Source: Acinetobacter phage Acj61. Taken from it: a stretch of 64,000 nt of DNA. The notes under the pieces were generated by a model. The model did no database searches, was not told where the DNA came from, and saw only the letters and a program-made list of their open reading frames with translations. Positions within the stretch are counted from its first letter, which is position 1, and every line of letters starts with the position of its first letter. Where the stretch lies: sequence record GU911519.1; one strand, 5' to 3'. The translations under genes were made by a program, and so were the position numbers. Of this stretch, positions 17,701 to 24,151 are shown piece after piece.

Positions 17701-19275
17701 ATGTCTACTCAAATCAAAACTAAAGCACAACTTGTTGCAGATTGGAAACCTCTTTTAGAAGCTGAAGGCGCTCCAGAGATTGCACAAGGCAAACATGCGA
17801 TCATCGCAAAAATGTTCGAAAACCAAGAAGCCGATATCAAATCTGATGCTGCTTATCGTGATGAAAAACTTGCTGAAGCATTCGGTGGTTTTTTAACTGA
17901 AGCGGAAATTGGCGGAGACCATGGTTACGATCCTCAAAATATCGCAGCTGGTCAAACTTCTGGTGCTGTAACCCAGATCGGGCCTGCAGTCATGGGTATG
18001 GTACGTCGTGCAATTCCTAACTTAATTGCATTCGATATCTGTGGTGTACAACCTATGCAAGGTCCGACTGGTCAAGTATTTGCTCTTCGCGCTGTATATG
18101 GCAAAGACCCAATCGCTGCTGGTGCTAAAGAAGCATTCCACCCAATGTATGCACCAGATGCAATGTTCTCTGGTCGTGGTTCGCACGAAGTATTTGCACC
18201 ACTTGCATCAGGCACTGTAGTTGCTCAAGGTACTATCTACAAACACGAATTTGTAGCAACTGGTACTGCATTCCTTCAAGCAACTGGCGCTGTAACATTG
18301 GCTACAACTGCTGATGCTGCTGAACTTGATGCTGAAGTTATTAAGCAAATGGATGCTGGTATTCTCGTTGAAATTGCTGAAGGTATGGCTACTTCAATCG
18401 CGGAATTGCAAGAAGGCTTCAATGGCTCAAATAACAACCCATGGAATGAAATGGGCTTCCGTATCGATAAGCAAGTTATCGAAGCTAAATCTCGTCAATT
18501 GAAAGCTCAATACTCAATTGAACTTGCTCAAGACTTACGCGCTGTACATGGTATGGATGCCGATGCTGAGCTTGCAAACATTCTTGCTACTGAGATCATG
18601 TTGGAAATCAACCGTGAAGTTATCGATTGGATTAACTACTCAGCACAAGTTGGTAAAACTGGTCAAACATTGACAGTTGGTTCTAAAGCCGGTGTATTCG
18701 ACTTCCAAGACCCTATCGATGTACGTGGTGCTCGTTGGGCTGGTGAATCATTCAAAGCGTTACTGTTCCAAATCGACAAAGAATCTGCAGAGATTGCTCG
18801 TCAAACTGGACGTGGTGCTGGTAACTTCATCATCGCTTCTCGTAACGTAGTTAACGTATTAGCTTCAGTTGATACAAGCGTTACTCCAGCTGCACAAGGT
18901 CTTGCACGTGGTCTTAACACAGACACTACCAAAGCGGTATTTGCCGGTATTCTTGGTGGTCGTTATAAAGTGTACATTGACCAATATGCACGTCAAGATT
19001 ACTTCACAATTGGCTACAAAGGTGATAACGAAATGGATGCTGGTATCTACTACGCTCCGTACGTTGCCTTGACACCTTTACGTGGTGCTGATCCGAAGAA
19101 CTTCCAACCAGTATTGGGCTTCAAAACTCGTTACGGTATTGGTATCAACCCATTAGCTGATACAGCTGCTCAGCAACCTGCTGGTAATGCACGTATCGCA
19201 AACGGTATGCCATCAATTGCTAACTCTGTTGGTAAAAATGGTTACTTCCGTCGTGTACTTGTTAAAGGCATCTAA
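17701..19275 (+). CDS. gp23: major capsid protein gp23
   Basis: 524 aa, versus 521 aa for T4 gp23. It lies between gp22 and gp24 and is followed by a strong terminator. Confidence 0.9.
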   Translation: MSTQIKTKAQLVADWKPLLEAEGAPEIAQGKHAIIAKMFENQEADIKSDAAYRDEKLAEAFGGFLTEAEIGGDHGYDPQNIAAGQTSGAVTQIGPAVMGMVRRAIPNLIAFDICGVQPMQGPTGQVFALRAVYGKDPIAAGAKEAFHPMYAPDAMFSGRGSHEVFAPLASGTVVAQGTIYKHEFVATGTAFLQATGAVTLATTADAAELDAEVIKQMDAGILVEIAEGMATSIAELQEGFNGSNNNPWNEMGFRIDKQVIEAKSRQLKAQYSIELAQDLRAVHGMDADAELANILATEIMLEINREVIDWINYSAQVGKTGQTLTVGSKAGVFDFQDPIDVRGARWAGESFKALLFQIDKESAEIARQTGRGAGNFIIASRNVVNVLASVDTSVTPAAQGLARGLNTDTTKAVFAGILGGRYKVYIDQYARQDYFTIGYKGDNEMDAGIYYAPYVALTPLRGADPKNFQPVLGFKTRYGIGINPLADTAAQQPAGNARIANGMPSIANSVGKNGYFRRVLVKGI

Positions 19276-20651: not shown

Positions 20652-20660
20652 ATAATACAT

Positions 20661-20694
20661 ACCGCAATGGGACTCATATGAGTCCCATTGCGGT
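20661..20694. terminator. 16-bp perfect palindromic hairpin centred on CATATG, between the convergent gp24 and the 106-aa ORF
   Basis: The sequence is ACCGCAATGGGACTCA TA TGAGTCCCATTGCGGT. The last 6 codons of the minus-strand ORF lie in the stem. Confidence 0.55.
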
Positions 20695-20994
20695 ATTAGT
20701 CACCCCATAAATGATGCCATGTTCAAGTGCAGATCGATGTACAATCCGTCCATGACGAGATTCTTGTACATCAACTTCTGGATAGTCAGTAATCATTTTT
20801 GCAAGTGCTGCAAGATGTGGTTTGTATTTGCTATCCTCAGGAGGATCCTTCCAATCTTTGCCTTCACTTGTGAGTTTTTCAATTTCATCCATAACCCACC
20901 AACCTACCCAGATGTATGCTGAATTACGGCAAGGCAAAGGATGAATTACAGGTGGTTTGTCTTTTTCTACCATTGAGTTGTTCGGTGTAGCCAT
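20674..20994 (-). CDS. hypothetical Trp-rich protein, a paralog of the C-terminal domain of the adjacent 219-aa ORF
   Basis: 106 aa. A GGAGA RBS precedes it. The motif WVGWWVMDEIEKL...KDWKDPP resembles WWIYDWITKNPQWKTDP in the upstream gene. Confidence 0.55.
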   Translation of the reverse strand: MATPNNSMVEKDKPPVIHPLPCRNSAYIWVGWWVMDEIEKLTSEGKDWKDPPEDSKYKPHLAALAKMITDYPEVDVQESRHGRIVHRSALEHGIIYGVTNTAMGLI

Positions 20995-21007
20995 ATTATC
21001 TCCAAAA

Positions 21008-21026
21008 GGGCCCGAAGGCCCGTGGT
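21008..21026 (-). terminator. terminator hairpin GGGCCCGAAGGCCC plus T-run on the minus strand, between the two paralogous ORFs
   Basis: On the minus strand the hairpin is followed by TTTTGG. It lies directly 3' of the 219-aa gene. Confidence 0.55.
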
Positions 21027-21685
21027 TATTCTAGTACAACAAAGCTTGAATTTCGAGTTTCTCGAATTCGTACAAATCCATCACGTTGGATGTAATAGAT
21101 TAAGCTTAAAAGTGTTTTCACTCCATGAAAATCATGGAATGAATTTGGATCGGTTTTCCATTGTGGATTTTTAGTGATCCAATCATAAATCCACCAAGGC
21201 AGTGTCACATACGCTGTGTGAGCACGTCCTAGCATTTGAATAGTCGGAGAAAAATTTGGTGGCAATTGGAATGCTGGCTGTTCAACAACTTCTTGAACTT
21301 CAGGTTCGTCTTGCTTAATTTCTTCCTTTTGTTCGACAACTTCAACTTGTTCCGTTGGAGCTGTCTCTACAGGTTTTTCTTCAACAATTTCACCACGAAG
21401 AGCAGCAAGTGCTGATTCTTTGGCTTCACCTTCAAAAACTGATTTGCCTGAAATTTCATCACTTGCTTGAATTAAGTCAGTGATTGTTAAACCTTCAGAA
21501 GGCTGTTCTGGCATTGGTTCATTAGCAAGCTTGGCCAATTCATCTTTGATGTCAGCAACCATGTTGTCGAATGAACGAGTTTTCTTTACGGAAATGTTGA
21601 ACTGAGCTGCATACTCAGCGAGTTTCTCTTTAGATTCTTTAACACCTAAAGTTTTGATTTCATCAATGTACGCTTTATCTAACAT
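21026..21685 (-). CDS. hypothetical late protein with an N-terminal helical domain, an acidic E/Q/V-rich linker and a C-terminal Trp-rich domain
   Basis: 219 aa. An exact TATAAATA lies on the minus strand 28 nt upstream (21713-21720). It occupies the slot where T4 has rnlB/hoc/inh. Confidence 0.55.
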   Translation of the reverse strand: MLDKAYIDEIKTLGVKESKEKLAEYAAQFNISVKKTRSFDNMVADIKDELAKLANEPMPEQPSEGLTITDLIQASDEISGKSVFEGEAKESALAALRGEIVEEKPVETAPTEQVEVVEQKEEIKQDEPEVQEVVEQPAFQLPPNFSPTIQMLGRAHTAYVTLPWWIYDWITKNPQWKTDPNSFHDFHGVKTLLSLIYYIQRDGFVRIRETRNSSFVVLE

Positions 21686-21712: not shown

Positions 21713-21739
21713 TATTTATACTATTGATGTTTATAAATA
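21713..21739. promoter_or_regulatory. divergent back-to-back late promoters: TATAAATA on the minus strand (21713-21720) for the 219-aa ORF, and TATAAATA on the plus strand (21732-21739) for uvsW
   Basis: Both octamers are exact and 11 nt apart. Confidence 0.55.
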
Positions 21740-23318: not shown

Positions 23319-23606
23319 CTAAGAAATAAGTTCGTCACATTCTTCACAAACAGTCATTGCAGCAATCTCATTGTGAACTCGAACATACGGGTCATGCCAG
23401 ATGTCACAGTTCTCACATAAGAATGTGTATTGTTCTAATGCATCGGTGAATATTTGACTGTGAACAACTTCAAAGTCGATTCCCAAATCTTCGAGAACTG
23501 AACGTATAGCACCAGTTTTGCCATGGGCTCCACCTGTCTCTTGACAGCCTTGAAGTTCATTTGCTATTTCGCGATATTGATCGTCGGTTGGATAAACTAA
23601 ACTCAT
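23319..23606 (-). CDS. hypothetical small zinc-ribbon protein
   Basis: 95 aa with the motifs CENCDIWHD...CEECDE. An ATGA overlap links it to the upstream ORF. Confidence 0.45.
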   Translation of the reverse strand: MSLVYPTDDQYREIANELQGCQETGGAHGKTGAIRSVLEDLGIDFEVVHSQIFTDALEQYTFLCENCDIWHDPYVRVHNEIAAMTVCEECDELIS

Positions 23607-23920
23607 TTGTACACCTTTTCGTCTACATAAAATTCTAACTCTTTAGTGACGCCATCAACAATGACTACACCACGTTCAAAATCAAACTCTTTAACAAGCA
23701 AACGAGTTTGCCATGGGTCGATGCCCCATCCCCAATCAAATTTACGATATGGGCAAACGTAATGAACGTTGGTGAGATTTTTACACCCGTCCATAGTAGC
23801 AAAATTCAATCCAGGTGCTCCAACGAATTGTACTACCCAGCGTTCTGACAAGTTGCGTACAGTCGGTTCGTCGCAAGTCAATTTAACTTGTTCTGCACGA
23901 AAAGATGATACCTTACCCAT
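23603..23920 (-). CDS. hypothetical protein
   Basis: 105 aa. An early-type promoter element lies upstream at 23948-23983. No similarity to UvsY was recognised. Confidence 0.45.
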   Translation of the reverse strand: MGKVSSFRAEQVKLTCDEPTVRNLSERWVVQFVGAPGLNFATMDGCKNLTNVHYVCPYRKFDWGWGIDPWQTRLLVKEFDFERGVVIVDGVTKELEFYVDEKVYK

Positions 23921-23982
23921 AATGTTTTACTCATTAATTGTTGATAGGACTATTATAACACAGTCCTATCTCGATGTAAACT

Positions 23983-24151
23983 GCTATAGCAACAATTCTG
24001 TTTCTAGAAGCACATCGCTATCGCTTTCAAAAACTGGCATCTGTTCTACATGCTGTAAGCATACACCAGGATGCACAGGACCATTTGCAGTTTCAACTAC
24101 TAACAAGTCATCAATAGGCTGCTTACACACAGCACAAATTTGCTTTTCCAT
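23983..24151 (-). CDS. possible small zinc-ribbon ORF (56 aa, below the track cutoff)
   Basis: An ATG with a GAGG RBS leads to MEKQICAVCKQPIDD...HPGVCLQH. It was found by manual translation only. Confidence 0.3.

What the first reader, a model, noticed from the sequence alone, without database searches (positions are those of the whole stretch)
20674..21685. Tandem pair of Trp-rich paralogous late genes replaces the rnlB-hoc-inh region after gp24
T4 has rnlB, 24.2/24.3, hoc and inh in this position. This window has only two minus-strand ORFs of 219 and 106 aa. Both carry a similar Trp-rich block (TLPWWIYDWITKNPQWKTDP versus YIWVGWWVMDEIEKLTSEGKDWKDPP). The larger adds an N-terminal helical domain and an acidic (E/Q/V) linker. 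It is driven by an exact minus-strand TATAAATA (21713-21720), so it is expressed late, and it has its own terminator (21008-21026). A late, acidic-linker protein next to the capsid genes is a candidate head decoration or internal head protein (an Hoc or Inh analogue). The duplicated Trp domain could bind carbohydrate or capsid.
Basis: partly seen in the sequence, partly recalled or inferred. Interest (0 to 1): 0.55.

Follow-up and report, generated by a model that had tools for sequence, protein, structure and literature searches.

The report
Shortened Hoc and Inh head genes
The two "new" Trp-rich genes are the phage's own, already annotated hoc and inh head genes (Acinetobacter phage Acj61); hoc has lost all its fibre-forming Ig domains and keeps only the part that binds the capsid, and that same part also forms the tail end of Inh.

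Summary
The interpretation that these ORFs replace hoc and inh is wrong. The window is Acinetobacter phage Acj61. The 219-aa ORF is 100% identical to its annotated Inh (ADG36152.1). The 106-aa ORF is its annotated Hoc (ADG36151.1). Gene order (24> <hoc <inh uvsW>) matches T4 and Acinetobacter phage AB-Navy71; only rnlB/24.2/24.3 are missing.

The 106-aa Hoc is just the capsid-binding domain: 68% identical to T4 Hoc 290-373, and the model matches PDB 8t1x_X at TM 0.68/0.74. It has no Ig domain. DNA comparison with a closely related Ig-bearing allele shows it arose by in-frame deletions. Most capsomer-contact residues are kept, and the gp23 docking loop is 18/19 identical to T4.

The shared Trp-rich block is true homology, but it is old and family-wide, not a local duplication. 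The Inh C-terminal domain is a diverged copy of the Hoc capsid-binding domain (hhalign E 2e-5; Foldseek top PDB hit is the Hoc C-domain; bridging sequences exist). I found no paper that discusses this, and it suggests Inh docks on gp23 capsomers.

Both genes are probably co-transcribed from the late promoter at 21720-21713. Overall this is already known, with low to moderate interest.

The parts
21713..21720 (-). T4-type late promoter motif TATAAATA upstream of inh. It is the probable promoter for the inh-hoc transcript.
   Evidence: Exact match, 27 nt before the inh ATG. No other TATAAATA lies between here and hoc. Promoter function is inferred from the motif.
21026..21685 (-). inh, called the inhibitor of prohead protease gp21 / minor head protein. 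It is 219 aa plus the stop codon. Residues 1-97 are helical, about 98-138 are an acidic disordered linker, and 139-219 are a Hoc-type domain.
   Evidence: 100% identical to Acj61 Inh ADG36152.1. Matches phrog_1051 at E 6e-78 over 1-218. Precomputed Pfam hits are PF26097 and PF26098. AF2 model.
21029..21271 (-). Inh C-terminal domain (aa 139-219), a diverged homologue of the Hoc capsid-binding domain.
   Evidence: hhalign E 2.2e-5, probability 76%. Top PDB Foldseek hit is 8t1x_X, the T4 Hoc C-domain on the gp23* capsomer (prob 0.89, TMt 0.57). BFVD ranks 8-24 are mostly Hoc proteins or unnamed entries. A Hoc-C HMM hits 184 of 218 proteins (214 Inh-type, 4 Hoc) at E<0.01.
21008..21021 (-). Intercistronic hairpin GGGCC-UUCG-GGCCC followed by UUUU, between inh and hoc. 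It is probably an attenuator or RNA-stability element rather than a full terminator.
   Evidence: -13.1 kcal/mol, z = -2.0. It does not meet the terminator rule on the minus strand.
21000..21003 (-). Shine-Dalgarno GGAG for hoc, 5 nt before the ATG.
   Evidence: Read from the sequence.
20674..20994 (-). hoc, an Ig-less allele of 106 aa plus the stop codon. It is the capsid-binding domain of Hoc alone.
   Evidence: Identical to Acj61 'Hoc head outer capsid protein' ADG36151.1. Residues 13-96 match T4 Hoc 290-373 at E 1.3e-34. Matches positions 1062-1149 of 1150 in phrog_1149. The AF2 model matches 8t1x_X at E 9e-9 with TM 0.68/0.74. No Pfam domain was found and no Ig remnant exists anywhere in the window.
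20659..20696 (.). A 17-bp perfect palindrome, a bidirectional intrinsic terminator between convergent gene 24 and hoc. It overlaps the last codons of hoc.
   Evidence: -36.5 and -35.1 kcal/mol, z = -7.3 and -10.3. The same palindrome is kept in relatives L009 and L007.
18679..18735 (+). gp23 residues 327-345, equivalent to T4 gp23 Gly326-Arg344. This is the loop on which the T4 Hoc C-domain docks.
   Evidence: GSKAGVFDFQDPIDVRGAR against T4 GSKAGVFDFQDPIDIRGAR, 18 of 19 identical, with the Asp336 and Arg344 equivalents kept. The role of this loop comes from PMC10385173 section 3.4.

Best explanation
The region holds the orthologues of T4 inh and hoc in Acinetobacter phage Acj61. They sit in the ancestral position between gene 24 and uvsW.

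inh encodes the usual three-part protein: a helical N-domain, an acidic disordered tether and a C-terminal domain.

hoc is a deletion allele. An in-frame deletion fused the first ~4 codons to the linker after the last Ig domain. A second 24-nt deletion, flanked by ATTC microhomology, removed 8 more codons. What remains is only the ~85-residue capsid-binding domain.

Inferred mechanism: both genes are transcribed late from TATAAATA at 21720-21713. Part of the transcript passes the small UUCG hairpin. hoc is translated from its own GGAG. Transcription ends at the 17-bp palindrome shared with gene 24. After head expansion, the 12-kDa Hoc most likely docks with its beta-sheet, the WW turn and the ESR(N/H)G loop at the centre of gp23* hexamers, as T4 Hoc does. 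It would form a low cap with no 180-A Ig fibre.

The Trp-rich block common to both proteins is this capsomer-binding fold. Inh carries an old, diverged copy of it. Inh is therefore probably anchored to gp23 capsomers through its C-domain.
For: Identity:
- Both proteins match the Acj61 records exactly.
- PHROG matches and the PDB sequence match to T4 Hoc 290-373.
- The fold matches 8t1x_X.
- Gene order is the same as in AB-Navy71, which has a 361-aa hoc, and in T4.

Deletion origin:
- DNA alignment with the Ig-bearing allele L012 is near-identical from GAAGACAAACCACCTGTA onward, apart from a 24-nt gap.
- The first codons, ATGGCTACA, match the AB-Navy71 hoc start.
- No Ig remnant exists in the 64-kb window.

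Binding competence:
- The equivalents of T4 H295, R300, Y304, W306, W309, W310, D313, Q354, E355, S356, R357 and G359 are kept (one search read).
- The gp23 docking loop is 18 of 19 identical.
- The same short ORF is intact in at least five other assembled contigs from different samples (L003, L004, L009, L010, L011).

Inh/Hoc homology. Bridging Inh-type proteins such as P0227 carry GYWVVDEIDKLGDDWK and RESRNS. P0227 scores 42 bits against the Hoc-C HMM and E 3.5e-9 against the Inh-C profile.

Expression signals.
Against: - There are no expression or virion data. Promoter, read-through and capsid binding are all inferred.
- Four T4 contact residues differ: Y293 to V16, H299 to C22, N358 to H81 and Y360 to R83. 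H81 and R83 also occur in Ig-bearing Hocs. Tyr293 is nearly invariant elsewhere.
- Substitutions among the short alleles are too few to show purifying selection. The window against L009 has 6 non-synonymous and 1 synonymous change.
- A 163-kb relative lacks hoc altogether, so Hoc is dispensable in this clade.
- The AF2 model of the short Hoc has only moderate confidence (mean pLDDT 68.6).
- The Inh-C profile did not reach any Hoc at E<=1e-3 in a library-wide search. T4's own Inh and Hoc are not similar by BLASTP.
Confidence: 0.85

Rival explanations
1. The 106-aa hoc is a decaying remnant. It is a recent deletion product that is no longer useful, whether or not it still binds, and is on its way to being lost.
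For: - A close 163-kb relative (L007/L008) has inh directly followed by gene 24 with no hoc.
- The nearly invariant Tyr293 equivalent was lost in the second deletion.
- Non-synonymous changes outnumber synonymous ones among the short alleles: 6 to 1 and 3 to 1.
- The C-terminal tail is unstable. The window reads through into the terminator stem, while L009 stops at IYG.
- hoc is known to be non-essential and patchy across T4-like phages (PMC2839356).
Against: - The ORF, its SD and the contact motifs are intact in every sampled copy.
- The allele shows dS of about 0.015 while its flanks show 0.09-0.17. It has therefore spread across diverged backgrounds rather than drifting within one of them.
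- The substitution counts are too small to distinguish a ratio of 1 from 0.2.
Confidence: 0.25
2. One reading: a novel tandem pair of paralogous Trp-rich late proteins took the place of hoc and inh. They would be analogues of those genes, possibly carbohydrate-binding.
For: The two ORFs do share a Trp-rich domain. rnlB, 24.2 and 24.3 are absent at this site.
Against: Both ORFs are full orthologues of Inh and of the Hoc C-domain, at E 6e-78 and 1.3e-34, and are annotated as such. The paralogy predates the split of T4-like phages, since Inh and Hoc families from many genera show it. No carbohydrate-binding family was hit.
Confidence: 0.02
3. The resemblance between the Inh C-domain and the Hoc C-domain is convergence or chance, not common descent. 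Inh would then not use it to bind capsomers.
For: - The library-wide profile search with Inh-C found no Hoc at E<=1e-3.
- T4 Inh against T4 Hoc-C gives BLASTP E 1.5.
- The Foldseek E-value against 8t1x_X is only 0.37.
- The Inh C-domain is basic (pI 9.2) whereas the Hoc domain has pI 6.2.
Against: - The order of secondary-structure elements is the same, and the same motifs align: R, aY, WW, D, I, WK and E-[ST]-R-N.
- 8t1x_X is the single top hit in the whole PDB.
- About 17 Hoc-type models follow the Inh models directly in BFVD, at prob 0.84-1.0.
- 184 of 218 proteins (214 Inh-type, 4 Hoc) are hit by a Hoc-C HMM in the same register.
- Intermediate sequences exist.
- The two genes are adjacent in most T4-like genomes examined.
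Confidence: 0.07

Closest known systems
T4 Hoc (highly immunogenic outer capsid protein; PDB 8t1x, 5vf3; Fokine et al. 2023, PMC10385173)
   Same: [quoted passage not shown] The WW turn, R300, D313 and the ES-R-G loop are kept. The gene sits in the same position downstream of inh and convergent with gene 24. The gp23 docking loop is conserved.
   Different: There are no Ig-like domains at all: 106 aa against 376. The Tyr293 equivalent is deleted. A 9-residue tail is encoded by the terminator stem. The shortest architecture described in PMC10385173 is one Ig domain plus the C-domain (233 aa). The pI is about 5.9-6.2, higher than the ~5 reported for full-length T4 Hoc.
Hoc of Acinetobacter phage AB-Navy71 (Hadassahvirus, UQS94260.1, 361 aa) and the metagenomic fragment L012
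   Same: These are the closest Ig-bearing alleles. The AB-Navy71 C-domain is 73% identical. The L012 C-domain DNA is nearly identical to the short alleles. The locus layout is identical.
   Different: They carry Ig domains, which Acj61 has lost by in-frame deletion.
T4 Inh (gene inh / lip / hoc.1; PHROG 1051; Pfam PF26097 + PF26098)
   Same: The match is full-length, with the same three-part architecture, the conserved end ...IRETRNSSFV and the same position and orientation. A late promoter motif lies upstream.
   Different: None of note; this is an ordinary orthologue. What I did not find discussed is that its C-domain is a diverged Hoc capsid-binding domain.
Hoc-like proteins that use the capsid-binding domain to display other modules (Enterobacter phage PG7 GDSL-lipase fusion, Serratia phage Muldoon; PMC10385173 section 3.6)
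   Same: One capsid-anchoring domain is combined with variable passenger domains. Inh fits this pattern: a helical domain on an acidic tether plus the anchor.
   Different: Those proteins are recognised as Hoc-like by sequence. Inh is far more diverged and is traditionally listed as a protease inhibitor or internal head protein.

Membership tests
Hoc (T4-type head outer capsid decoration protein) | Conserved capsid-binding domain homologous to T4 Hoc residues ~281-376 | tested here: met
   phmmer against PDB gives E 1.3e-34 to T4 Hoc 290-373. Matches phrog_1149 at E 3.6e-46. The AF2 model matches 8t1x_X at E 9e-9, TM 0.68/0.74.
Hoc (T4-type head outer capsid decoration protein) | Capsomer-contact motifs: His295, Arg300, Trp309-Trp310, Asp313 and the Glu-Ser-Arg-Asn-Gly loop (PMC10385173) | tested here: met
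   H18, R23, W32-W33, D36 and E78-S79-R80-H81-G82 are present. Exceptions are Y293 to V, H299 to C, N358 to H and Y360 to R (one search read).
Hoc (T4-type head outer capsid decoration protein) | String of one or more N-terminal Ig-like domains forming the fibre. This is typical of the family; the published family search itself was done with the C-domain only. | tested here: not met
   No Pfam hit. T4 and AB-Navy71 Ig regions find nothing in the window at E<=10. Only 12 residues precede the domain. I therefore file it as a capsid-binding-domain-only variant of Hoc, on orthology by synteny and C-domain, and not as a canonical Hoc fibre.
Hoc (T4-type head outer capsid decoration protein) | Locus: downstream of inh, convergent with gene 24 | tested here: met
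Hoc (T4-type head outer capsid decoration protein) | Docking site on the major capsid protein (T4 gp23 Gly326-Arg344) present | tested here: met
   18 of 19 identical, with Asp336 and Arg344 kept.
Hoc (T4-type head outer capsid decoration protein) | Binds the centre of gp23* hexamers of expanded heads, about one copy per hexamer | not testable with these tools
   Needs cryo-EM, virion mass spectrometry or in vitro binding.
Inh (T4 inhibitor of prohead protease gp21 / minor head protein) | Full-length sequence match: Inh N-domain plus Inh C-domain | tested here: met
   phrog_1051 at E 6.2e-78 covering 1-218 of 219. Precomputed Pfam hits PF26097 and PF26098, and 100% identity to Acj61 Inh. 36 invariant columns across 23 homologues.
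Inh (T4 inhibitor of prohead protease gp21 / minor head protein) | Locus: divergent from uvsW, immediately upstream of hoc, with a late promoter | tested here: met
Inh (T4 inhibitor of prohead protease gp21 / minor head protein) | Inhibits the gp21 prohead protease; present in heads | not testable with these tools
   This function is taken from the annotation. I could not retrieve the primary T4 literature.

The most novel reading that the evidence does not exclude
Inh is an ancient paralogue of Hoc that uses the same capsomer-docking fold. On this reading the so-called prohead-protease inhibitor, or 'internal' head protein, is anchored to the centre of gp23 hexamers. It would present a small helical domain on an acidic tether and might compete with Hoc for sites, or occupy them at a different maturation stage. 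The Acj61 short Hoc would then be a natural minimal-anchor experiment: a capsid whose hexamer centres are capped without a fibre.
Probability: 0.35. Interest if true: 0.55.

Novelty: already known. Interest (0 to 1): 0.27.

Why it matters
The finding does not reveal a new gene pair. It recovers hoc and inh, which the Acj61 record has carried as annotations under accessions ADG36151.1 and ADG36152.1. Two by-products may interest T4 head specialists.

1. Acj61-like phages carry a naturally Ig-less Hoc. It arose by simple in-frame deletions and occurs in several environmental samples, alongside relatives with a full Hoc and relatives with none. That is a ready-made series for asking what the fibre contributes compared with the anchor, for example in aggregation, dispersion or mucus adherence. 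It also shows the minimal anchor is a stand-alone unit of about 85 residues, which is useful for capsid display.

2. The Inh C-domain is a diverged Hoc anchor. This gives a testable structural hypothesis for a T4 protein whose location and mechanism are poorly documented.

Tried and rejected
- Pfam-A and NCBIfam scans gave nothing useful for either ORF. The local Pfam copy did not report PF26097 or PF26098, which the precomputed table lists.
- Megablast against the phage collection found only 72%-identical Acinetobacter phages. Acj61 itself is not in that collection. The identity came from exact protein look-ups.
- The exact-product contig look-up for the window's Hoc returned nothing, although the sequence is in the cluster table.
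- The word-indexed homologue search with the short Hoc returned only 24 short proteins. It cannot be used to estimate how common Ig-less Hocs are.
- dN/dS on the short hoc alleles is uninformative, with only 1-7 substitutions.
- The library-wide profile search with the Inh C-domain found only Inh-type proteins (103 at E<=1e-3) and no Hoc. The link needs profile-profile comparison, fold comparison or bridging sequences.
- T4 Inh against the T4 Hoc C-domain by BLASTP is not significant.
- Literature searches for an Inh-Hoc relationship, or for primary data on Inh, found nothing. One search was too unspecific. The T4 genome review is not held. The absence of a paper in this library does not prove the relationship is unpublished.
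- I considered and rejected two ideas. A second Hoc-like or Ig-bearing gene elsewhere in the window was not found by tblastn. A separate late promoter for hoc inside inh does not exist as a TATAAATA motif.

Full report
**What is there**

Between the stop of gene 24 (20651, + strand) and the start of uvsW (21765/21786, + strand) lie exactly two minus-strand ORFs: 21026-21685 (219 aa) and 20674-20994 (106 aa).
- Both peptides are there.
- TATAAATA lies on the minus strand at 21720-21713.
- A GGGCC-UUCG-GGCCC-UUUU hairpin lies at 21021-21004.

**Identity**

The 219-aa protein is 100% identical to 'Inh inhibitor of prohead protease gp21' of Acinetobacter phage Acj61 (ADG36152.1). The 106-aa protein is identical to the 'Hoc head outer capsid protein' of the same phage (ADG36151.1). 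The window is therefore Acj61, a T4-like phage reported to use Acinetobacter johnsonii as host (PMC6147977).

Independent searches agree with these names:
- The large ORF matches PHROG 1051 ('minor head protein inhibitor of protease') at E 6e-78 over its whole length.
- The small ORF matches only the last 88 positions of the 1150-position Hoc PHROG 1149, at E 3.6e-46.
- The small ORF matches residues 290-373 of T4 Hoc in the PDB at E 1.3e-34.

The order 24> <hoc <inh uvsW> is the same as in AB-Navy71, whose hoc is 361 aa. It is also the order in T4 and RB49. So hoc and inh are not replaced. Only rnlB, 24.2 and 24.3 are missing at this site.

**The short Hoc**

Only 12 residues precede the capsid-binding domain. 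Several checks show no Ig domain:
- Pfam finds no domain.
- The Ig regions of T4 and AB-Navy71 Hoc find nothing anywhere in the 64-kb window, even at E 10.
- The inh-hoc spacer is 31 nt, which leaves no room for a pseudogene remnant.

A metagenomic fragment (L012) carries an Ig-bearing hoc whose C-domain DNA is almost identical to the short alleles. In the alignment the sequences coincide from GAAGACAAACCACCTGTA onward, except for a 24-nt gap flanked by ATTC. The first codons, ATGGCTACA, match the AB-Navy71 hoc start. The allele is therefore derived. One in-frame deletion removed the Ig domains. A second removed 8 codons, including the equivalent of the nearly invariant Tyr293.

The same short gene is intact in at least five other assembled contigs from different samples. 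A 163-kb relative has no hoc at all between inh and gene 24. Between the window and L010 the short hoc has dS of about 0.015, against 0.09-0.17 for inh, uvsW and gene 24. This suggests a young allele moved by recombination. The substitutions are too few to measure selection.

**Can the short Hoc still bind?**

Fokine et al. (PMC10385173) list the T4 Hoc residues that touch gp23*. Mapping them through the alignment gives:
- Conserved: H295, R300, Y304, W306, W309, W310, D313, Q354, E355, S356, R357 and G359.
- Changed: Y293, H299, N358 and Y360. The last two substitutions also occur in Ig-bearing Hocs.

The gp23 loop that Hoc docks on (T4 Gly326-Arg344) is 18 of 19 identical in the window's gp23. 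The AF2 model has moderate confidence (pLDDT 68.6). Its best PDB match is 8t1x_X, at E 9e-9 and TM 0.68/0.74. I infer that the protein caps hexamer centres without a fibre. This is not shown.

**The shared Trp-rich block**

The evidence for true homology between the two proteins is as follows:
- Pairwise BLASTP between the two window proteins gives E 3e-4.
- Each protein weakly hits the other's PHROG.
- Profile-profile comparison gives E 1.6e-4 for full-length Inh and 2.2e-5 (probability 76%) for the C-domain alone. The aligned motifs are R, aY, WW, D, I, WK and E-[ST]-R-N, which are the Hoc contact motifs.
- The AF2 model of Inh has a confident C-domain (pLDDT about 90) with the same order of strand, helices and strands as the Hoc model.
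- The single best hit of the Inh model in the whole PDB is the T4 Hoc C-domain bound to the capsomer (prob 0.89, TMt 0.57).
- Among viral models, the seven Inh hits are followed by about 17 Hoc-type hits.
- A Hoc-C HMM hits 184 of 218 proteins (214 Inh-type, 4 Hoc) in the same register. Some of these, such as P0227, have Hoc-like GYWVVDEIDKLGDDWK and RESRNS motifs and score 42 bits.

Two results set limits on this. The Inh-C profile did not reach Hoc at library-wide significance. In T4 itself the two proteins are not similar by BLASTP. The relationship is therefore real but old and family-wide, not a tandem duplication in this phage.

The Hoc structure paper never mentions Inh. It reports no structural neighbour for the Hoc C-domain. 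I found no paper that states the relationship, within a library that lacks most of the older T4 literature.

**Expression**

The only TATAAATA on the minus strand near these genes is the one before inh. A second, on the plus strand at 21732-21739, faces uvsW. hoc has a GGAG 5 nt before its ATG but no promoter motif. The hairpin before it has 5 bp and only four U. Co-transcription with partial read-through is the simplest reading. The true terminator is the 17-bp palindrome at 20659-20696, shared with gene 24. The last nine hoc codons lie in its stem and are missing in the L009 allele.

**Verdict**

The genes are already known and annotated. The Ig-less Hoc architecture and the Hoc-type anchor in Inh are modest side results that can be tested.

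Noticed in passing
window 21713-21739: Back-to-back T4 late-promoter motifs sit in the inh-uvsW spacer. TATAAATA at 21720-21713 (-) faces inh, and TATAAATA at 21732-21739 (+) faces uvsW, 11 nt away.
   Followed up: partly
window 20659-20705: The last nine codons of hoc (VTNTAMGLI) are encoded by the stem of the 17-bp palindromic bidirectional terminator. The related allele in L009 stops at ...IYG just before it, so this tail is a recent read-through extension.
   Followed up: partly
window 23319-24151 (-): Between uvsW and gene 25 there are three small ORFs of 95, 105 and 55 aa. They match only PHROGs of unknown function; the 55-aa one corresponds to DUF2685 in relatives. No UvsY-like ORF sits where T4 has uvsY.
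   Followed up: partly
L007 4631-4726; L008: A 163-kb metagenomic relative of Acj61 has no hoc at all. Only 96 nt separate inh from gene 24, and these hold a similar palindromic terminator.
   Followed up: yes
L012 1-447: This fragment carries an Ig-bearing hoc whose C-domain is identical to the short L009 allele. An in-frame stop lies two codons from the contig edge, which could be an assembly-edge error or a pseudogene.
   Followed up: no
window 20674-20994 vs L010 2310-2633 and flanks: Synonymous divergence of the short hoc (0.015) is about ten times lower than that of the flanking inh, uvsW and gene 24 (0.09-0.17). This points to recombinational mosaicism around hoc.
   Followed up: partly
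P0227, P0236, P0235, P0222 (metagenomic Inh-type proteins): These Inh-architecture proteins have C-domains much closer to Hoc (29-42 bits against a Hoc-C HMM). They bridge the two families.
   Followed up: partly
BFVD hits A0A482N0D1 (86 aa), A0A1S5R606 (107 aa), A0A2U7N8C7 (132 aa), E5EPX1 (Acj9 Hoc, 178 aa): Other very short Hoc-like proteins exist in coliphage, Pseudomonas and Acinetobacter phages. Ig-less or one-Ig Hocs may therefore be recurrent. I did not check whether any of them are split or mis-called genes.
   Followed up: no
L006 2480-2983 (Citrobacter phage Margaery): A 167-aa 'capsid decoration protein' has the Hoc capsid-binding domain at its N-terminus, followed by about 90 residues of other sequence.
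   Followed up: no
window 21765 vs 21786: The mechanical ORF for uvsW starts at TTG 21765 (507 aa). Gene calls in relatives use the ATG equivalent to 21786 (500 aa, MADINLEF...).
   Followed up: no
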